A stretch of DNA of 64,000 bases from Escherichia phage Eps7 (NC_010583.1), one strand, 5' to 3'; positions 4,178-44,992 are shown, counted from the first letter of the stretch. Notes: generated by a model not told the origin, from the letters alone. Numbers and translations: made by a program.

Positions 4178-4429
4178 TTAGCTAATAGCTTGCCATTTAT
4201 CATCTTTCTGAATGATCTTTACAACGTCGCCGGATTTAACGCGAACATTATAAATTGGCTTGCCGTGGTTACTGCGTTCCGTTTCCGCATAGACCGCTTC
4301 AATTTTATCGAAAGGATCTAGCGCCGCACCTTTAATACGTTCGGCTTTTCCGGTTAATTCATCCGTTTTAGTAACGAAAGGAATAAATACAGATTGACCT
4401 ACTTTCGGCGCGGTAATAACGTTTTGCAT
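4178..4429 (-). CDS. hypothetical protein
   Basis: 83-aa ORF ending the minus-strand pre-early block. Confidence 0.4.
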   Translation of the reverse strand: MQNVITAPKVGQSVFIPFVTKTDELTGKAERIKGAALDPFDKIEAVYAETERSNHGKPIYNVRVKSGDVVKIIQKDDKWQAIS

Positions 4430-4563
4430 TTTTAATACTCCGGTTTATTGGGGATTATTCCACAATAGCGCCTCGATACTTTGAAACGCTATTAGATTAT
4501 AATCCGCTAGGAGTTAGCCTAAACATTACCGTTTTTCCAAATTGTTAAAGAGCAGTTACTACG

Positions 4564-4872
4564 GGGAACATCTTAAAACCTATCGGCTAGCGTGTCAAGC
4601 GTTTTTTAAACTTTTTTCGATTTGATGTGAGTTATATAAATCAATCATTATATTACGCCACACCATTTCCAGACCTTGCTGCTTACCTTTCTTGTATTGC
4701 TTGAATCTGTATTTTACAGATCGTTGCGCTACTGTCAACAAATTTTTTTGTTCTGCTATCTAATGCGCTAGCAGGTTTCGCACTAATCACTAAAGCGTTT
4801 TTTGATTTGATCATTATCGTCGATTCCTTATAATGTATAAGTTTACCGCCGATAGGCTTTAAGATGTTCCCT
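4564..4872. repeat. 24-bp inverted repeat pair (GGGAACATCTTAAAACCTATCGGC / reverse complement) separated by ~260 bp
   Basis: 4564-4587 and 4849-4872 are reverse complements with one mismatch; lies in 1.5-kb non-coding region. Confidence 0.7.
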
Positions 4873-5520
4873 AGTTTTTAAAGAGCATGGCGGTAAACTT
4901 CCCCGCCGTGTAATCTTGCGTTTCGTTTCCGTCCCGCCGTCCTACGAGATAAATAATAGCAAATTGAGCGAAAGAGACAAGCGTAATTTTGTAAAGAAGT
5001 GTAAAGACAAACGCCACCGCACCACGTCCAGCGGCGCACTAAATTTAATGAAACGGGCGCGCGAATAACACCAAAACAACCATTTTAGCAAGTAATTTTT
5101 TCATTTATATCTGCTCTAGGGTACTTGACAAAATCTAAAATCCTCGTGGTGAGGTTTTCTCGGTGTACCCCTTATGATTGCCTATCTTTTCCTTTGATGC
5201 GCTTAGAATCGCTTACAGAGCGTTTTAGACCCTGTTAATAACTTATACAAAAAGCAAAAAATGAAATTTAATGAGTTATCCACTTGATTTTTCAAAAAAG
5301 TATTTTCTGCTGTTATTTTTCATTGACAAATAAGTTTAGACGTGCATTGATTGGTTAGCAGACTAACAATCGCTAGGATGATAATCACGCTGGTGGATTG
5401 TAACAGCCGAAACAGTTAGCAGACTATTAATAATCTAAAAACCTATTAGCCAACTAACTATTTCATATTATATAATATACTTATAAATTAAAGAGAAATA
5501 ATAACTATAAGAAACTATCG

Positions 5521-17883: not shown

Positions 17884-17987
17884 ATGTAAAGTTTTAAAAT
17901 AAAAGGCCTAAGCCTAGGCCCGTAAAGAAAGAGATAAGAACTACTATCCCTATTGCTATAAATATCTCACGAGCCATGCCATCAAAA

Positions 17988-18503
17988 TCAAACATTGATA
18001 TCTCCCCTCAATACCGCTGCCACATCTTCATCGATTTGGAGTACTTCACCAGTAGTACAGTTAACCACTTTATCATAGCTTGTGAATTTGCCAGACACAA
18101 TATCCTCTAGAGGAATAGGAGTCTTGCTCATCTCAAAAGAGACGTTGATATAACGTGGGTCACGCACAGAATTAGTATGCACATGTCCGTGAATGTTTAG
18201 CCTACCACGAAGTTCTGCTTCATGCAATGGACAATGTGACAGCCAAAACTTCTTGCCACCACCTGTTTGCTTACCTAGAGCCTGAATATCATCATAAACG
18301 TCTATAAGATCTTTAATATGCAGACCCTGACGCTCAGCATCGTGGTTTCCCATAATTAGTTGGTTAGGCACGTTGTGGATAACCGACTTCAACTTGGCCA
18401 ACCCTTCTCGCCCCACGGCACTATCTCCTAGCAGCACAAGTTTTGTACGCTTGCCAATGTGCTTGGACAAAGTATCTAGGATATACTCATCGTGCTCTTT
18501 CAT
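17988..18503 (-). CDS. calcineurin-like metallophosphoesterase
   Basis: 171-aa ORF with GDSAVGRE, GNHD and GHVH motifs. Confidence 0.6.
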   Translation of the reverse strand: MKEHDEYILDTLSKHIGKRTKLVLLGDSAVGREGLAKLKSVIHNVPNQLIMGNHDAERQGLHIKDLIDVYDDIQALGKQTGGGKKFWLSHCPLHEAELRGRLNIHGHVHTNSVRDPRYINVSFEMSKTPIPLEDIVSGKFTSYDKVVNCTTGEVLQIDEDVAAVLRGDINV

Positions 18504-18576
18504 GTTCTTAAACCAGGGGCGAAAACGAAGAATCCCTGGGTGGTCTAAGTGGAGTTCACTCCAGAATTTAACTTCA

Positions 18577-18783
18577 TTATTTATTCCTTACACATGTGGA
18601 TATAATAGTATAACTATCGTAGAATATACCTTTTGTGAGTCCAATTTGAATACTGGAATAATCTAGCTCACCTCCAGCTACATCACATAAGTGTTTTGTA
18701 TCTTCTGCAGTAAATCTCATATTATCGTCGTAAGAATCACATCCAGCTAACAGCAATGTAGATAAGAATACCAGCTTTTTCAT
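18577..18783 (-). CDS. small lipoprotein
   Basis: 68-aa ORF with lipobox-like signal MKKLVFLSTLLLAGC. Confidence 0.5.
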   Translation of the reverse strand: MKKLVFLSTLLLAGCDSYDDNMRFTAEDTKHLCDVAGGELDYSSIQIGLTKGIFYDSYTIISTCVRNK

Positions 18784-19082
18784 TAATACCTCTTTTTAGT
18801 TAACCAATACATATGGTGCTCATATTGATAGCGATTCCACTTATCTTTAAATTCATCCATATGATTAAAGATATGTTTGGCTAAATCGTTAGCATTCTCT
18901 AGTGTTTTAGCGTAAAGTTTTACTGGTTCGCCATTCTCATACGAGATAATAATAAAGAGCCTATTATCTTCTTCAAATGCGGGGGATATAGATCGTATCC
19001 CCTCAACATCAATAAAGCCAGCCCAGCCTAGAGACTCAAAGTTACAATACTTAGTAATTGTTGGTATAATAGGTTTTTCCAT
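18783..19082 (-). CDS. hypothetical protein
   Basis: 99-aa ORF. Confidence 0.5.
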   Translation of the reverse strand: MEKPIIPTITKYCNFESLGWAGFIDVEGIRSISPAFEEDNRLFIIISYENGEPVKLYAKTLENANDLAKHIFNHMDEFKDKWNRYQYEHHMYWLTKKRY

Positions 19083-19960
19083 TACAGAATCCTCTGTACA
19101 CCACAGCTATCATTTTTATCTGTGGTAAATGTCATGATCTTACCGGCTTCATCATTAACTTGCGCAACCGTCAACTGCCCGTTGAAAACACCGCCAGTAT
19201 CGAGATAAACACGGTTCTTATACAGAATTGGGTAAGGAACACCAGTGTGTCCGTGGAATACGAAATCCACATTCTCAACTTCTGGTACTTCCACAGTCAA
19301 TTCATCTTTAAATCCCGCATAACGCTGGAAGTATGGATGCTCCGCACCTTGTTTAGACAGATGAAAACCAATTTCTTGAATTACATCACGATCCCATAGA
19401 TACGGCTCAATGTAATAGCTAGGATGATCATTAGGATCATTTTCACTTGCAGCGATATGATCAATAATATCATCCCAATTAGGTGTATGTACATCGAATC
19501 CAGCATCTTTATACTGAAACGGTATTCCGCCATGAACAACACCGTATTTCTTGCCACGATGGAGTACGGTCATGAATACAGGCATTTTAGCTGCCATATC
19601 TTCTGCGATACCTTTAATTGTATCGGTATCCATATCATTCATTGCCCACATCCCTCCATTATACATCCAGTTGGCATAGTCACCCGCAATCATAAACTGA
19701 TCATGGTTGCCACGAACGCTACGGAAGCGTGGGTTATATAAGAATTTGGCTAGGACCTGTAAGTTCTGCGGGCCACGGTCAATTAAGTCGCCAACACAGA
19801 CAACATAGTCACGCTTTTCTTTATATCCTGCTAGTTTAAGAGCATCTTCCAGCATATCATTACAGCCGTGAATATCTCCTACGAAGAACAGGTTAACATC
19901 GTCTGGTACTACTAACATTTCGTGCAGGTTAAATTCTTTTTTCATTATCGAGTCATCCAA
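19082..19960 (-). CDS. serine/threonine protein phosphatase (PPP family, lambda-phosphatase-like)
   Basis: 292-aa ORF with GDIHG, GDLIDRG and GNHD motifs. Confidence 0.8.
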   Translation of the reverse strand: MDDSIMKKEFNLHEMLVVPDDVNLFFVGDIHGCNDMLEDALKLAGYKEKRDYVVCVGDLIDRGPQNLQVLAKFLYNPRFRSVRGNHDQFMIAGDYANWMYNGGMWAMNDMDTDTIKGIAEDMAAKMPVFMTVLHRGKKYGVVHGGIPFQYKDAGFDVHTPNWDDIIDHIAASENDPNDHPSYYIEPYLWDRDVIQEIGFHLSKQGAEHPYFQRYAGFKDELTVEVPEVENVDFVFHGHTGVPYPILYKNRVYLDTGGVFNGQLTVAQVNDEAGKIMTFTTDKNDSCGVQRIL

Positions 19961-20325
19961 TTAGTGTGTTTTTCAGCTTCTGTATCATTTGGCTCAAAGA
20001 CAACGTGACAGTCTACTACTTCCCAGAAAGATTGACGGATGATAGCATTTTGTTCTGCAATATCCAATCCTTCCCATTCTTCAAGTGTTTCTAGATCTGT
20101 ATCAACTTCGGTATCACAGCCCACCAGCCCCAAAGTAACAACAATAGTAACACGGCCTTCACGTTCTTCGGGATAAACTTCAGCATATTCCCAAGCAGCC
20201 TGTTCAACATAGTATTCTTGCTCCGATTTAGACAAAGAGTTATACTTTTCTTCTGTGATTCCCATCTCTACAGCACGAGTACCACAGACCACGTTGTTAT
20301 GTATTATAAGATATGCGTAATTCAA
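19945..20325 (-). CDS. hypothetical acidic protein
   Basis: 126-aa ORF 32 nt downstream of promoter. Confidence 0.5.
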   Translation of the reverse strand: MNYAYLIIHNNVVCGTRAVEMGITEEKYNSLSKSEQEYYVEQAAWEYAEVYPEEREGRVTIVVTLGLVGCDTEVDTDLETLEEWEGLDIAEQNAIIRQSFWEVVDCHVVFEPNDTEAEKHTNWMTR

Positions 20326-20356
20326 TGTGATACTCCCCTCATCAATTTATACATAT

Positions 20357-20390: not shown

Positions 20391-20419
20391 TAAAAAACCC
20401 AGATCAGCTAAGATCTGGG
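20391..20419 (-). terminator. rho-independent terminator
   Basis: CCCAGATC-AGCTAA-GATCTGGG stem-loop followed on minus strand by T6. Confidence 0.65.
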
Positions 20420-20428
20420 TTAGATTTA

Positions 20429-21695: not shown

Positions 21696-22110
21696 TCAGA
21701 CTAATTCTACGTGACCACCGTCGTAAGTACCACGATCGATCTCATCATGATAATCACCAGAACTATTCCAGTCGGCACCAAAACGAAGTTTGACACCAAG
21801 TTCCTTACCAGCTTGTTCAAAAGCCTTCTTAACAGCCCAAAATGCTTCCAGATCTTTCCAATCAATCTTACCATTAATATATGGTGCAAAATCGATAGCG
21901 TCTCCAGTTACATGCTTACTTTTGCTAGGGTCTTTCAAAAATGAAGTACCATTAGCAATGTTTTGGGCACTTTGTGCTACTGTACGAATACCTTGTACGA
22001 TTGTGAAATCATATGGGGATAGTTCTAAAGCCCTACGAGCTACCTTTTGTAGCTCGGGCTTAACAGTTGCTAATTGTTTTTCGTCTTATTTTACCTAAAT
22101 TAAAACTCAT
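21696..22110 (-). CDS. lys: endolysin, L-alanyl-D-glutamate peptidase type; apparent +1 frameshift near 5' end
   Basis: C-terminal 80 aa (HVTGDAIDFAPY...GGHVELV) plus upstream out-of-frame start MSFNLGK; matches recalled T5 endolysin; ATGA overlap with upstream gene. Confidence 0.7.
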
Positions 22111-22761
22111 ATAGATCTACCTAATGATCTTTGCTGCGGTGAGCAAAGCTTTGTTAAGTACTCCTTAAATTGTTCCGAGTCAGCTGTATCTACGGGTTTA
22201 TCCTTCCAGGCAATACCTATGTATCCAGCATAGATATTATTTAGGTTGAAATACGGACAAGTATAGACGTAATTAAAAGTAACGTTCTTAAACGCGGGTA
22301 TATTTGACCCCATATATTTATTTACTTTTACACTTAAATCCGAAGCGTAGTTAAAGCCTTCCAGGTGACGTCTATAAAGTTCAGACGTCTTGTTTACTGC
22401 TTTATCGGCCAAGTCAGCCCTATCCAATTGCGCATTGCTTTCCCATGCAATAATGTTCGAATAATCGTTTATAGCATCGGGTTTATACTTGACTACAAAA
22501 ACAGCATCCGCACCCGTCTGAGAGAAAAGAACCATGCTCTTTTCTCGTGCTACATTAGGAAAGTTATCTATCCTTTGGGTTTGAACATCCTGTAAAACCG
22601 CAGACGTGAGAAGTCTTTAAAAATGACATCACCTCGCTAGTGTTACTTACAAACAAGAAAATAATGACAGCAACTAAGATAGTTAGCAGACGTTTTAGTA
22701 GCGAAGCTGGATCTTTCGCTTCTTGGAGCAGTACCGTTAATAGTTGTAGAAACTTTTCCAC
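22107..22761 (-). CDS. putative holin, frame interrupted
   Basis: ORFs 22564..22761 (N-terminal TM) and 22107..22535 with frame continuity across 22565-22616; coupled to endolysin start. Confidence 0.5.
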
Positions 22762-23529: not shown

Positions 23530-24282
23530 TTATCCAACTAGTGGTTCTAGCTCTAAGTCACAGAAGTGGTACACATCGGTACGAAGTGCATCAAGTCCGT
23601 TGAAGGTATTCTCAAATTTATGAGAAATGTATTTTTCAGGAATACCGCTTTCAGACGGATGATCTGTCTCGATGCGATACTTATTAGTAATACCAGATTC
23701 AACCTTAATAAGCATGGAATCCATATCTAGAGTATTGGTTTCCATGATTAGCTCTCCCTCATTGGGGAAACGCACATCGGTAACGATTGCGACGTCTGGG
23801 TCGTCTTTATCGATGGATTGCTCCAGAATTATGAGCCAAATGCGTTCATGCACCAGCTGCCTTCCTAACTCAGTACCTACAAGCTGTAGCATTTTTCTTG
23901 GGGAGATAAATACGCTATACAGCGCATCATCAGCTTGCCCAATTAACTGCTGAGGATCAAGGTATTTTCCTTCAAAAATCGGCCAAACGTACGAGAAGTC
24001 CTCAAACTTATCGATACCATACTTAAACCATACGTCTCTAGCTCGCTCCAATTGAGATTGTGTGACTGTAAACCATTGGTCAATCTCTTTTCCCCTGCGC
24101 TCTCCCAGAAACTCTGGAGTTACCCCGAGGATTACGGATGCAAGTTCGTAAACGGGTTTAGCAAAACTGTAACGACGGGATAAACACGTTGGGAACGTGT
24201 CATTACACCAGTCAATCATTAATTCTGCAACGGTATCTTTTCCCGCACCAGCCTCACCATGTAAACCGACTAATACTGACAT
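23530..24282 (-). CDS. deoxynucleoside monophosphate kinase-like P-loop protein
   Basis: 250-aa ORF with N-terminal GEAGAGKDT Walker A, similar in layout to phage dNMP kinases. Confidence 0.6.
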   Translation of the reverse strand: MSVLVGLHGEAGAGKDTVAELMIDWCNDTFPTCLSRRYSFAKPVYELASVILGVTPEFLGERRGKEIDQWFTVTQSQLERARDVWFKYGIDKFEDFSYVWPIFEGKYLDPQQLIGQADDALYSVFISPRKMLQLVGTELGRQLVHERIWLIILEQSIDKDDPDVAIVTDVRFPNEGELIMETNTLDMDSMLIKVESGITNKYRIETDHPSESGIPEKYISHKFENTFNGLDALRTDVYHFCDLELEPLVG

Positions 24283-24635
24283 TAATCTTTCCTATTTGTA
24301 ATGGGTGGATAGTAAACTAAGCAACGTTTTTCTTGTAAATCTTGACGATAGAAGCAAACCATACCGGTCAGTCGTGAAATGTAAGAGTAAACTGCTTCCT
24401 CGCATTTTGCTTTTGCATTCCAATCTTTGTAAGGTACAACAACTACTACGCCATCTTCACCATTTGTAGCTAATTTCTTTTCGAATTTGAAATCAAAGCT
24501 ACACGGCTGAAGTCCTTTAGGCCAGTCAACATGAGCTTGTTTTAACTCATGGGATGGCTCCGGTTTTATTTCTTCTGCACAGCCTGTGATTGTGATTGCG
24601 GCTGCGAGCAGTACTCCAAGTTTCCAGTTAAACAC
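24282..24635 (-). CDS. lipoprotein (candidate outer-membrane spanin subunit)
   Basis: 117-aa ORF with lipobox ITGC; overlaps upstream TM/coiled-coil gene. Confidence 0.45.
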   Translation of the reverse strand: MFNWKLGVLLAAAITITGCAEEIKPEPSHELKQAHVDWPKGLQPCSFDFKFEKKLATNGEDGVVVVVPYKDWNAKAKCEEAVYSYISRLTGMVCFYRQDLQEKRCLVYYPPITNRKD

Positions 24636-25015
24636 GCTAATCTTTCCTCGAACTCTTTATTCTGCTTTTTAGCAATTAATGTTACCAATCCAGGCTTTGC
24701 AGCGATAACATCTTGACGACTAAGAGCTTTATCTAACTGCTTAATCTTTTTGTCTAGATCTGCTTGCGAAATATTATTCATTGTGAAATACTGGTTCATT
24801 CGAGTCTCACGAAGTTCACTCTCAGTTTTCACTTTATTAAGAGAAGTCTCTAGAGTGGAGATCTTTTTAGTCGCAACTGCAAGATCTCCCGCTAAAGTTT
24901 CAACCTTATTTACTAAATGATAAGCACCGAATCCGATACCTATCGCAAGACCAGCTCCCAGGATATACCACTTACCTTGCCATATTCCTGAAAGAAGTTT
25001 TTGTATCAAATCCAT
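24566..25015 (-). CDS. N-terminal TM coiled-coil protein (candidate inner-membrane spanin subunit)
   Basis: 149-aa ORF; TM helix then heptad-rich region; 3' end overlaps lipoprotein gene. Confidence 0.45.
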   Translation of the reverse strand: MDLIQKLLSGIWQGKWYILGAGLAIGIGFGAYHLVNKVETLAGDLAVATKKISTLETSLNKVKTESELRETRMNQYFTMNNISQADLDKKIKQLDKALSRQDVIAAKPGLVTLIAKKQNKEFEERLACLTGNLEYCSQPQSQSQAVQKK

Positions 25016-43842: not shown

Positions 43843-44286
43843 TTAATTAAATTCGCCAGCAACCTGAGCAGCAATGCCACCATCGTAACGACCAGGAAAC
43901 TCTTCCTTAATCGCTTTCATCAGCATACCCTTTGTAATCCCAGGATTCAACTTAACTAATTCTGCAAAGTATTTGCGAATCTCAGAATCAGATAACTGAG
44001 GCGGCAGATACTGTTGTAGCCATTTGTTCAGTATATATTCATACTGAGCAGACTGCAAGCTATAATTATCAAGGTCTTGACCGTGAAGTTTAGCTTTTGT
44101 CTGATTAATGCTTTTCAGTTGAGCTTTTAGATAAGATACAAACTGTTCAGAAGTAATGAAGTCTTTATCAACACGCTGAAGATCTCCGATTATAGTCTGG
44201 TAGCTTTTAGCTACTTCTTTATCAGAACCATCAACCTTAGATTCCTGCAAAGCCCTACGCAAAACATCTAGAATATTCTCTTCCAT
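43843..44286 (-). CDS. GatB/YqeY-domain-like protein
   Basis: 147-aa ORF; recalled resemblance of C-terminal region to YqeY family; TAATG overlap with upstream small ORF. Confidence 0.45.
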   Translation of the reverse strand: MEENILDVLRRALQESKVDGSDKEVAKSYQTIIGDLQRVDKDFITSEQFVSYLKAQLKSINQTKAKLHGQDLDNYSLQSAQYEYILNKWLQQYLPPQLSDSEIRKYFAELVKLNPGITKGMLMKAIKEEFPGRYDGGIAAQVAGEFN

Positions 44287-44456
44287 TATTTAATTCCCAG
44301 TGCTTGGTTAAAAGATTGTTCTGTCATAACTGCCGAGACTTTAGCGAAATCAAACTTCTTAGGGTTTGTAGTAATTTCAGCAACGTTAGTAGTTTTAACT
44401 GTTTTCGTAGTACGGATACCACGAGTATTAACACCAATAATTACAACTGATTTCAT
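44286..44456 (-). CDS. small hypothetical protein (56 aa)
   Basis: ORF below track threshold, 32 nt downstream of promoter. Confidence 0.4.
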   Translation of the reverse strand: MKSVVIIGVNTRGIRTTKTVKTTNVAEITTNPKKFDFAKVSAVMTEQSFNQALGIK

Positions 44457-44487
44457 ATTTCGCTTCCTCTCATTAATTTATGAAAGT

Positions 44488-44516
44488 ATTATACAGAAAT
44501 TTAAGGCTTTAAGCAA
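44488..44516 (-). promoter_or_regulatory. sigma70-type early promoter
   Basis: ATTATA 44488-44493, AAGCAA 44511-44516, 17-bp spacer. Confidence 0.6.
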
Positions 44517-44524
44517 TCGAATTT

Positions 44525-44992
44525 TTAAGTTTTCTTAACCACAGGCTTGTAGAACGTATGGCCTTGAATCTTCGTTGTTTTCTTAAACTTCTTTGTCCAG
44601 TACGGTTTATCTTTACCACTATGGAAGTATAACGCTCCATGTGTTGGATCTTGTGGTAAATCAACGTAGTATATCACTCTAGCTAAATTCTTAGCAACTT
44701 GCCAAGCCTCATCGGTTTTATCAACTTTTGGTCTCTTGGCCACCCAAGAGAACTGGTTAGACTGATATACTACTTTACAGTAAGAATCAGGAAAGTACCA
44801 GAGTTAACACGGTTTTTTAGTAACCTGTGCAACTGCGATCATTCCTTTAGTGCCCTCACCTCGTGCTTCGAAGTAGATATTTTTTGCAATGCAATCAATC
44901 TGCTTTGAGTCGTAGGTCGCATGACTATTGAAGCTATAGGTTAGGGCAGCTATTAAAAGCAAAGCTGCCTTCATTTTATTTACTCCGGCCAA
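44525..44992 (-). CDS. SleB-like cell wall hydrolase with signal peptide, frame interrupted
   Basis: ORFs 44804..44992 (signal peptide, NIYFEARGE) and 44525..44743 (HGALYFHS); intervening frame reads VNSGTFPDSYCKVVYQSNQFSW. Confidence 0.5.

What the first reader, a model, noticed from the sequence alone, without database searches (positions are those of the whole stretch)
18577..18783. Small early lipoprotein
The 68-aa ORF has a lipoprotein signal (MKKLVFLSTLLLAGC) and sits among early genes next to phosphatases. Small phage lipoproteins can block the phage receptor to prevent superinfection.
Basis: inference. Interest (0 to 1): 0.35.

Follow-up and report, generated by a model that had tools for sequence, protein, structure and literature searches.

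The report
Small conserved lipoprotein of T5-like phages

Summary
Window 18577..18783 (minus strand) encodes a 68-aa prolipoprotein with a Shine-Dalgarno site. It sits in an early operon of an EPS7-type Epseptimavirus (T5-like) between two phosphoesterase-family genes. The gene is under purifying selection (dN/dS 0.06-0.17). It belongs to a tiny family found only in T5-like phages, always just downstream of the Ser/Thr phosphatase. The lipobox Cys, two further Cys and a Gly are invariant. AlphaFold predicts one helix plus a beta-hairpin, with no structural relative.

The receptor-blocking interpretation is not supported. The same-species genome PSa2 already carries a canonical Llp/Cor-family blocker next to its receptor-binding protein. 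BtuB-using SPC35 and FhuA-using T5 lack this gene. Asp at +2 (28 of 35 distinct family sequences) predicts retention in the inner membrane, away from outer-membrane receptors.

The public label "Rz-like spanin" also fails. A complete overlapping spanin pair lies at 24282..25015, and no i-spanin partner is adjacent.

My best guess, at low confidence, is an accessory periplasmic factor tethered to the inner membrane that protects or excludes after adsorption. Ordinary to mildly interesting.

The parts
18577..18783 (-). CDS of the 68-aa prolipoprotein (stop codon 18577..18579)
   Evidence: PHROG 6073 E 1.2e-26. The exact protein is EPS7 ACB97479.1. dN/dS 0.06-0.17.
18742..18783 (-). Signal peptide, residues 1-14 (MKKLVFLSTLLLAG), removed by signal peptidase II
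   Evidence: Read from the sequence. The lipobox is conserved in every homologue.
18739..18750 (-). Lipobox L12-A13-G14-C15; Cys15 becomes the lipidated N-terminus
   Evidence: Cys15 is invariant in alignment A3. Lipobox consensus as quoted in PMC6139136.
18580..18741 (-). Mature 54-aa lipoprotein. Asp16 is the +2 residue. A variable linker covers residues 16-22. The conserved core (residues 23-68) holds Cys33 (18685..18687) and Cys64 (18592..18594).
   Evidence: Alignment A3. AF2 model with pLDDT 84-91 over residues 30-68: helix 26-35, strands 38-51 and 56-66. +2 tally D28/N5/K2.
18789..18794 (-). Shine-Dalgarno AAGAGG, 5 nt before the ATG
18783..19082 (-). 99-aa ORF of unknown function, translationally coupled (TAATG at both ends). 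It shares the low-GC insert with the lipoprotein gene.
   Evidence: No Pfam, NCBIfam or PADLOC hit. GC 34% against 41-44% in the flanks. Absent next to the lipoprotein in SP01 and My1.
19082..19960 (-). NinI-like Ser/Thr phosphatase, the conserved upstream landmark of the family
   Evidence: A Metallophos gene lies upstream of every family member examined.
17988..18577 (-). Phosphoesterase gene. Its ATG overlaps the lipoprotein stop codon. In this window a 1-nt deletion at about 18573 shifts the frame after codon 2.
20303..20331 (-). Sigma-70-like promoter (ATCACA-17-TATAAT, 10/12), just after a terminator-like hairpin at 20396..20421. Probable start of the operon.
   Evidence: T5 has an annotated promoter and terminator at the homologous position. 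This is a consensus match only.
17904..17921 (-). Terminator-like hairpin with a T-run. Probable end of the operon.
   Evidence: consensus match only
24566..25015 (-). CONTEXT, not part of the unit: the phage's i-spanin (T5.045 homologue)
   Evidence: PHROG 739 E 3e-38. The T5 spanin family, which includes EPS7, is listed in PMC6139136.
24282..24635 (-). CONTEXT, not part of the unit: the phage's o-spanin lipoprotein (T5.044 homologue), overlapping the i-spanin gene
   Evidence: PHROG 812 E 4e-30. Lipobox ITGC with Ala at +2.

Best explanation
This is a genuine accessory gene of T5-like phages (Demerecviridae).

Shown or directly read from the sequence. The gene is co-transcribed and translationally coupled with the phosphatase genes. 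It encodes a 68-aa precursor with a type II (lipoprotein) signal peptide. The mature product is 54 aa and lipid-anchored at Cys15. It has a short variable tether (residues 16-22) and a strongly conserved core of about 45 residues, predicted as one helix packed on a beta-hairpin. The core carries two invariant cysteines.

Inferred. The two cysteines form one intramolecular disulfide, made in the periplasm. Because residue +2 is Asp with no basic neighbour (CDSYDD), the enterobacterial Lol system should leave the protein on the periplasmic face of the INNER membrane.

It is not the phage's spanin and not its receptor-blocking Llp. Both of those are encoded elsewhere.

Proposed function (speculative). 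It is an early-made envelope protection or exclusion factor acting after adsorption. It would bind a periplasm-exposed target at the inner membrane, for example the channel-forming tail proteins or DNA-entry step of a superinfecting phage. That would exclude competitors regardless of which outer-membrane receptor they use, complementing the receptor-specific Llp.

My confidence by step: real lipoprotein about 0.9; not a spanin about 0.85; not the cognate receptor blocker about 0.8; inner-membrane location about 0.6; post-adsorption exclusion mechanism about 0.25-0.3.
For: Real, constrained gene: RBS, TAATG coupling and intact ORF; dN/dS 0.06-0.17, with changes concentrated in the signal peptide and tether while the core is nearly invariant.

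Family restricted to T5-like phages at one syntenic position. An exhaustive HMM search of 1.8 billion representatives found only about 8 true relatives. A profile search added 3 more. Every context examined has the gene 0-3 genes downstream of the Metallophos phosphatase in T5-like contigs.

Invariant Cys15, Cys33, Gly38 and Cys64.

The AF2 core is confident: pLDDT 84-91 over residues 30-68.

Asp+2 occurs in 28 of 35 distinct family sequences, although the surrounding tether is hypervariable. Asp+2 is the enterobacterial Lol-avoidance signal (PMC6469965). By contrast the phage's o-spanin has Ala at +2, and the Llp/Cor proteins have Ser, Val or Thr.

Accessory character: absent from T5 and SPC35, replaced by another gene in S124, and low in GC.

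The spanin and Llp roles are already filled.

Early timing would suit exclusion, as for Llp.
Against: There is no functional evidence of any kind, and no homology or fold match to any characterised protein.

The +2 residue is Asn in 5 sequences and Lys in 2. These should go to the outer membrane in E. coli, so the anchoring membrane may not matter or may differ between hosts.

The Asp+2 rule is not absolute, and here +3 is Ser rather than the strongest Asp/Glu/Gln.

Localisation, lipidation and the disulfide are predictions only. I could not inspect model coordinates to check the Cys-Cys distance.

T5 and most Tequintaviruses do well without the gene, so any function is dispensable.
Confidence: 0.3

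Rival explanations
1. Receptor-jamming lipoprotein in the outer membrane. It would be a second blocker that works like Llp but is unrelated in sequence. It would bind the periplasmic face of BtuB or of another TonB-dependent transporter, to block the phage's own receptor or the receptors of competing phages and colicins.
For: It has the same design as Llp: about 55-60 mature residues, a lipid anchor and two conserved Cys for one disulfide. It is made in the early region. T5-like phages can carry extra Cor-like lipoproteins away from the RBP gene, for example S124 orf96 in the tRNA region. Seven of 35 family sequences have Asn or Lys at +2, which is compatible with the outer membrane. All receptor-typed carriers seen here use BtuB.
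Against: A canonical Llp/Cor gene already sits beside the RBP in PSa2, Stitch and S114-S133. There is no similarity to Llp/Cor beyond the signal peptide. Asp+2 in 80% of sequences predicts the inner membrane. BtuB-using SPC35 lacks the gene. It is conserved in Pectobacterium phage My1, which has a different host.
Confidence: 0.15
2. Outer-membrane spanin subunit (the current RefSeq/PHROG label 'Rz-like spanin'). It would pair with an inner-membrane spanin to fuse the membranes at lysis.
For: PHROG 6073 is labelled 'Rz-like spanin' and RefSeq propagates this, including for EPS7 itself. It is a small lipoprotein on the same strand, 3 kb from holin and endolysin. Lipoprotein genes are rare in phages and are usually spanins.
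Against: A complete overlapping i-/o-spanin pair exists at 24282..25015 (PHROG 739/812). It is the curated spanin of EPS7, Stitch, My1 and T5 in PMC6139136. My1 also has both. No type II membrane protein is adjacent: the neighbours are a soluble 99-aa protein and phosphoesterases. Asp+2 would keep it out of the outer membrane. The mature protein has no proline, a folded core, and no similarity to the T5-type o-spanin (BLASTP E 13). Center for Phage Technology annotators left it as 'hypothetical' in Stitch, Seabear and Sw2 while reporting an overlapping spanin pair in the related phage Sepoy.
Confidence: 0.05
3. Lysis-timing regulator. Tethered to the inner membrane, it would bind the periplasmic domain of the T4-T-type holin (or the endolysin) and delay lysis, which would make it an antiholin-like function.
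For: These phages have a Phage_holin_T holin with a large periplasmic domain. The lysis genes sit in the same early region, so lysis must be held back for most of the cycle. An Asp+2 lipoprotein would be in the same membrane as the holin.
Against: T5 and SPC35 have the same holin type but lack the gene. It is not adjacent to the holin. There is no resemblance to T4 RI or to any PDB structure. No lysis inhibition is reported for these phages in the papers read.
Confidence: 0.1
4. Another envelope role unrelated to exclusion or lysis. Examples are an inhibitor of a host periplasmic enzyme, of an envelope-stress sensor or of a membrane-associated defence system, or a fitness factor seen only in natural hosts.
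For: It is an orphan family with a compact binding-type domain and no catalytic motif. It sits in a variable, low-GC slot where different lineages carry different accessory genes. That pattern is typical of host-interaction or counter-defence cargo.
Against: No positive evidence. No PADLOC or other family hit. Small phage lipoproteins with known roles are almost all spanins or exclusion proteins.
Confidence: 0.25

Closest known systems
T5 Llp / Cor family of superinfection-exclusion lipoproteins (PHROG 1119; T5.158, UniProt Q38162)
   Same: A small phage lipoprotein of about 54-61 mature residues. It has a classic lipobox, two conserved Cys in the mature part (Llp has one intramolecular disulphide), sits in a virulent T5-like phage, and is expected to be made early.
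   Different: No sequence or profile similarity beyond the signal peptide, and no PHROG 1119 hit. Not adjacent to the receptor-binding gene. Asp+2 (inner membrane predicted) against Ser, Val or Thr (outer membrane). It coexists with a true Llp/Cor gene in the same genomes. The predicted fold (one helix plus a hairpin) matched no viral model outside its own family.
Two-component spanin o-subunit (lambda Rz1; T4 PseT.2 / T5.044 family, PHROG 812)
   Same: A small phage lipoprotein with conserved periplasmic cysteines, on the same strand and within a few kb of the lysis genes. The public label is 'Rz-like spanin'.
   Different: No partner i-spanin gene beside it. The genome has its own complete pair. 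It has Asp+2 and no proline. No similarity to the T5-type o-spanin.
Ltp of Streptococcus phage TP-J34 (lipoprotein that blocks DNA injection at the cytoplasmic membrane); recalled from my own knowledge, not tested here
   Same: If the best explanation is right, this is the closest functional analogue: a phage lipoprotein tethered to the outer face of the cytoplasmic membrane that excludes after adsorption.
   Different: Ltp comes from a temperate Gram-positive phage and is larger, with repeat helix-turn-helix-like domains. No homology is claimed. This is a resemblance of concept only.
Enterobacterial inner-membrane lipoproteins with the Asp+2 Lol-avoidance signal (e.g. AcrA, NlpA)
   Same: Cys-Asp at +1/+2 with no adjacent basic residue.
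   Different: The +3 residue is Ser or Pro rather than the most common Asp/Glu/Gln. The mature domain is unrelated. Localisation is untested.

Membership tests
Bacterial-type lipoprotein (signal peptidase II substrate) | Positively charged n-region, hydrophobic h-region, lipobox [LVI][ASTVI][GAS]C within about 15-25 residues of the start | tested here: met
   MKK / LVFLSTLLL / LAGC, with Cys at residue 15. The lipobox is conserved in all 35 distinct family sequences. UniProt rule-based name is 'Lipoprotein'.
Bacterial-type lipoprotein (signal peptidase II substrate) | Actual lipidation and globomycin-sensitive cleavage | not testable with these tools
   Needs labelling or globomycin experiments. 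LipoP and SignalP were not available either.
PHROG 6073 / Demerecviridae phosphatase-linked small lipoprotein family | Profile match over the whole protein and the syntenic position downstream of the Ser/Thr phosphatase | tested here: met
   E 1.2e-26 over residues 1-68. Synteny seen in SP01, My1 and four metagenomic T5-like contigs.
o-spanin (Rz1-like) | Cognate i-spanin gene (type II inner-membrane protein) embedded, overlapping or adjacent | tested here: not met
   The neighbours are a soluble 99-aa ORF and phosphoesterases. The real overlapping pair is at 24282..25015.
o-spanin (Rz1-like) | Outer-membrane sorting (no Asp at +2) | tested here: not met
   Asp+2 in the window and in 28 of 35 family sequences. 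The rule is as stated in PMC6469965. This is a prediction only.
o-spanin (Rz1-like) | Mature-domain similarity to a recognised o-spanin family | tested here: not met
   BLASTP against the window's o-spanin gives E 13. No Pfam hit. The only link is the PHROG 6073 label, whose origin I could not trace.
o-spanin (Rz1-like) | Required for outer-membrane disruption at lysis | not testable with these tools
   Needs complementation or deletion experiments.
Llp/Cor superinfection-exclusion lipoproteins (PHROG 1119) | Homology of the mature domain | tested here: not met
   hhalign of A3 against A5 aligns only the 18 signal-peptide columns. hmmscan against PHROGs gives no hit to 1119, whereas T5 Llp and the PSa2 blocker hit it at 1e-19 and 1e-23.
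Llp/Cor superinfection-exclusion lipoproteins (PHROG 1119) | Gene adjacent to the receptor-binding protein gene | tested here: not met
   The gene lies in the early region about 90 kb from the RBP locus. PSa2 has RBP 107215-108996 and blocker 109080-109346. T5 has oad and llp adjacent.
Llp/Cor superinfection-exclusion lipoproteins (PHROG 1119) | Two conserved Cys forming an intramolecular disulphide | tested here: inconclusive
   Cys33 and Cys64 are invariant. They lie on the helix and on strand 2 of the model. The bond itself was not verified.
Llp/Cor superinfection-exclusion lipoproteins (PHROG 1119) | Blocks adsorption by inactivating the receptor | not testable with these tools
   Needs adsorption and plating-efficiency assays.

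The most novel reading that the evidence does not exclude
The family is the first inner-membrane-anchored exclusion lipoprotein of a virulent Gram-negative phage. From the periplasmic face of the inner membrane, it would bind the incoming tape-measure or channel proteins (pb2-like) or another shared DNA-entry step. It would thereby exclude all T5-like competitors whatever their outer-membrane receptor. That would make it a Gram-negative functional analogue of the Gram-positive Ltp lipoprotein, and a second exclusion layer alongside Llp.
Probability: 0.15. Interest if true: 0.6.

Novelty: new variant of a known kind. Interest (0 to 1): 0.3.

Why it matters
The practical value is an annotation correction. 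RefSeq and PHROG call this gene 'Rz-like spanin' in well over a hundred T5-like therapeutic or biocontrol phage genomes, including EPS7 itself. The evidence here says that label is very probably wrong, because the true spanins are a different pair.

On the biology, the gene is a compact, strongly conserved orphan lipoprotein. Its predicted inner-membrane anchor is unusual for a phage lipoprotein. If it proves to be a post-adsorption exclusion factor, it would show that T5-like phages layer a receptor-independent exclusion on top of Llp. That is relevant to designing phage cocktails, where co-administered T5-like phages could exclude each other. If it has another envelope target, it is a small and tractable probe (54 residues, one disulfide) for that target.

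Tried and rejected
Family libraries. Pfam, NCBIfam and PADLOC gave nothing beyond signal-peptide-level noise: BSAP-5i at E 0.04 and entericidin A at E 0.15, both over residues 4-33.

PDB by sequence. A profile search gave only signal-peptide matches with E > 0.1.

Spurious hits. Two apparently significant hits in the 1.8-billion-protein search, P0010 (1262 aa) and P0011 (940 aa), are perfect tandem-repeat proteins whose scores are summed over repeats. They also 'hit' Sybindin, AlwI and other unrelated families with no single stretch passing. I rejected them as artefacts.

u-spanin. Rejected because there is no C-terminal transmembrane segment (sequence).

Module with the 99-aa ORF. Rejected because SP01, My1 and the metagenomic relatives have the lipoprotein without it.

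Correlation with receptor type. All receptor-typed carriers use BtuB, but nearly all Epseptimaviruses do, and BtuB-using SPC35 lacks the gene. So this gives no usable signal. H8 (FepA) could not be checked because its accession is not in the collection.

Literature. Searches found no paper on this protein. One search on Lol rules was wasted on poorly chosen terms.

Full report
WHAT IS THERE.

The ORF exists as described, on the minus strand at 18577..18783. It starts with ATG and encodes 68 aa: MKKLVFLSTLLLAGCDSYDDNMRFTAEDTKHLCDVAGGELDYSSIQIGLTKGIFYDSYTIISTCVRNK. A Shine-Dalgarno AAGAGG lies 5 nt upstream. The start codon overlaps the stop of a 99-aa ORF as TAATG. Its own stop overlaps the ATG of the next gene the same way, so the genes are translationally coupled.

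The window is an Epseptimavirus, a T5-like phage of the Demerecviridae. It is 99.2% identical over 8 kb to Escherichia phage PSa2, which belongs to species Epseptimavirus EPS7. The exact protein is deposited for phage EPS7.

The gene sits between a NinI-like Ser/Thr phosphatase (19082..19960) and a phosphoesterase (17988..18577). A sigma-70-like promoter at 20331..20303 and terminator-like hairpins at 20421..20396 and 17921..17904 bracket a five- to six-gene unit. T5 has an annotated promoter and terminator at the homologous upstream position. 'Early' therefore rests on synteny with the T5 early region, not on any measurement.

IS IT MORE THAN CHANCE?

A lipobox-like N-terminus is not rare by composition. 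My heuristic finds 2 such ORFs in the real window (this one and the o-spanin). It finds 0.52 +/- 0.74 in first-order Markov resamples of the window, and 41% of those have at least one.

Conservation is what carries the case. dN/dS is 0.06-0.17 between Epseptimavirus alleles. Amino-acid changes are concentrated in the signal peptide and in residues 16-22, while residues 23-68 are almost invariant. The lipobox Cys is invariant in relatives down to 35% identity.

THE FAMILY.

An exhaustive profile search of 1.8 billion representative proteins found only about eight true relatives. A word-indexed profile search of 5.8 billion added three more. tblastn finds the gene in 145 of 50,697 phage records. 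About 200 records carry an Epseptimavirus-type phosphatase, so most but not all Epseptimaviruses have it.

The carriers are nearly all Epseptimaviruses, plus the Tequintavirus SP01 and the Pectobacterium phage My1. The My1 relative DU_PP_V also has a family member.

In every context examined the gene lies zero to three genes downstream of the Metallophos phosphatase in a T5-like early region. Those contexts are SP01, My1 and four metagenomic contigs of up to 114 kb.

The slot itself is variable. In T5 and in SPC35 the two phosphoesterase genes abut, with nothing between them. In S124 an unrelated 122-aa gene occupies the slot. In the window the 99-aa ORF plus the lipoprotein gene form a block of 33-34% GC between flanks of 41-44%. 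This is an old but dispensable accessory gene.

ANATOMY OF THE PROTEIN.

Invariant positions are the lipobox Leu12 and Cys15, then Cys33, Gly38 and Cys64. Asp28, Gly37 and Ile47 are nearly invariant.

With the 14-sequence alignment, AlphaFold2 gives a mean pLDDT of 76.7, and 84-91 over residues 30-68. The predicted fold is a helix (26-35) followed by a long beta-hairpin (38-51 and 56-66). Cys33 lies on the helix and Cys64 on the second strand. I infer an intramolecular disulfide but could not measure it.

The mature protein is acidic (9 acidic against 5 basic residues) and has no proline.

SORTING SIGNAL.

The mature N-terminus is Cys-Asp-Ser-Tyr-Asp-Asp. In Enterobacteriaceae, Asp at +2 without adjacent basic residues is the Lol-avoidance (inner-membrane retention) signal. 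It is strongest when followed by Asp, Glu or Gln (PMC6469965).

Across 35 distinct family sequences the +2 residue is Asp in 28, Asn in 5 and Lys in 2. Positions +3 to +8 vary freely. By contrast the phage's own o-spanin has Ala at +2, and three Llp/Cor proteins have Ser, Val and Thr.

I therefore predict that the window's protein stays on the periplasmic face of the inner membrane. The Asn and Lys variants, and the known leakiness of the rule, keep this at roughly 0.6.

In T5-like phages the receptor-blocking lipoprotein is encoded next to the receptor-binding protein gene. It acts from the outer membrane on the periplasmic face of the receptor (PMC9586334).

PSa2 has exactly such a gene: 109080..109346, with the signal MKKLLAIVVAAVVLTGC, matching PHROG 1119 'Cor superinfection exclusion protein' at E 1e-23. 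It lies beside the RBP gene. Published work reports Llp genes in Stitch and in S114/S116/S126/S133. All of these also carry the present gene.

A profile-profile comparison of this family with Llp/Cor aligns only the 18 signal-peptide columns.

Presence of the gene follows lineage rather than receptor. It is absent from FhuA-using T5 and from BtuB-using SPC35, and present in BtuB-using Epseptimaviruses and in a Pectobacterium phage.

The cognate-receptor role is therefore already taken, and the gene meets none of the family's defining features apart from being a small lipoprotein with two cysteines.

TESTING THE DATABASE LABEL (SPANIN).

PHROG 6073 is labelled 'Rz-like spanin', and RefSeq applies that name to this gene in EPS7, SB13, Stitch, My1 and many others.

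The window, however, has a textbook overlapping spanin pair. The i-spanin is at 24566..25015 (PHROG 739, E 3e-38). The o-spanin lipoprotein is at 24282..24635 (PHROG 812, E 4e-30). These are homologues of T5.045 and T5.044. The curated spanin census lists this pair as the spanins of T5, EPS7, Stitch, SPC35, DT57C and My1 (PMC6139136). My1 carries both the pair and the small lipoprotein.

The present gene has no type II membrane protein next to it. It has an Asp+2 that would keep it out of the outer membrane, no prolines, and no similarity to the T5-type o-spanin.

The original Center for Phage Technology annotations leave it 'hypothetical' in Stitch, Seabear and Sw2. The same group reports 'an overlapping spanin pair' for the related phage Sepoy. 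The label most probably arose from lipoprotein-signal similarity, though I could not trace its origin.

WHAT IT MOST LIKELY DOES.

Nothing here measures function, so this part is inference. After spanins, the only well-established role of small lipoproteins in Gram-negative phages is superinfection exclusion.

Four features point to a dispensable envelope-level protection or exclusion factor that acts at the inner-membrane face of the periplasm, after adsorption:
- an early-operon position;
- a compact domain that looks like a binding domain, held on a tether of about 8 residues;
- a predicted inner-membrane anchor;
- coexistence with a receptor-specific Llp.

A plausible target is the DNA-entry step of superinfecting phages. 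I put this at about 0.3.

The rivals are an outer-membrane receptor jammer for another transporter (0.15), a lysis-timing regulator acting on the T-type holin (0.1), an unrelated host-envelope modulator (0.25) and a spanin (0.05). The Asn and Lys +2 variants remain unexplained under the inner-membrane model.

VERDICT.

The public 'spanin' label is probably wrong.

This is an uncharacterised orphan family of modest interest. Its main distinguishing feature is the predicted inner-membrane sorting, which is unusual for a phage lipoprotein.

Noticed in passing
window 18573 (phosphoesterase gene 17988..18577, minus strand): There is a 1-nt deletion in an A-run at codon 2: ATG-AAGTT here against ATGAAAGTT in SB13, SP01, LVR16A, STG2 and PSa2. 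The reading frame from the overlapping ATG stops after 10 codons. The remaining ORF (ATG at 18503) lacks the N-terminal metal-binding 'HLDH' motif. This is either a sequencing error or an inactivated gene.
   Followed up: partly
window 21696..22761 (endolysin and holin), also 15087, 22084, 22608, 22611: Compared with the 99.2%-identical PSa2, the window has 11 small indels in 8 kb, several of them inside genes. The endolysin ORF appears as only 80 aa, and the holin is split into 142-aa and 65-aa ORFs. Relatives have 137-aa and 218-aa genes. This looks like homopolymer or sequencing errors in an older record rather than biology.
   Followed up: partly
window 18783..19082 (minus strand): A 99-aa ORF with no family hit shares the low-GC (34%) insert with the lipoprotein gene and is translationally coupled to it. 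It is not found beside the lipoprotein in SP01, My1 or the metagenomic relatives. Its function is unknown.
   Followed up: partly
L014 (Salmonella phage S124) 14045..14272 and 4280..5224: S124 carries a second Cor/Llp-like 75-aa lipoprotein inside the tRNA region, and a 314-aa gene annotated 'lipoprotein', both away from the RBP locus. T5-like phages may therefore carry several accessory envelope lipoproteins. The S124 feature annotated as 'receptor blocking protein' (44219..44530) does not translate to a lipoprotein on the annotated strand.
   Followed up: no
window 20265..20325 (minus strand): The 126-aa ORF listed from a TTG at 20325 starts inside the predicted promoter (-35 at 20331, -10 at 20303). 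The ATG at 20265, which gives the 106-aa protein annotated in SB13, is the more likely start of this DUF7167 gene.
   Followed up: no
window 17894..17995 (minus strand): A 33-aa hydrophobic ORF (MFDFDGMAREIFIAIGIVVLISFFTGLGLGLLF) overlaps the end of the phosphoesterase gene and the terminator-like hairpin. It is annotated as a gene in SB13. It may be a small membrane peptide or only an annotation artefact.
   Followed up: no
protein database: Identical copies of the lipoprotein are filed under Salmonella enterica genome assemblies (e.g. EDY0344171.1, ECT4067518.1). This presumably reflects T5-like phage contigs within bacterial assemblies, through contamination or a carrier state.
   Followed up: no
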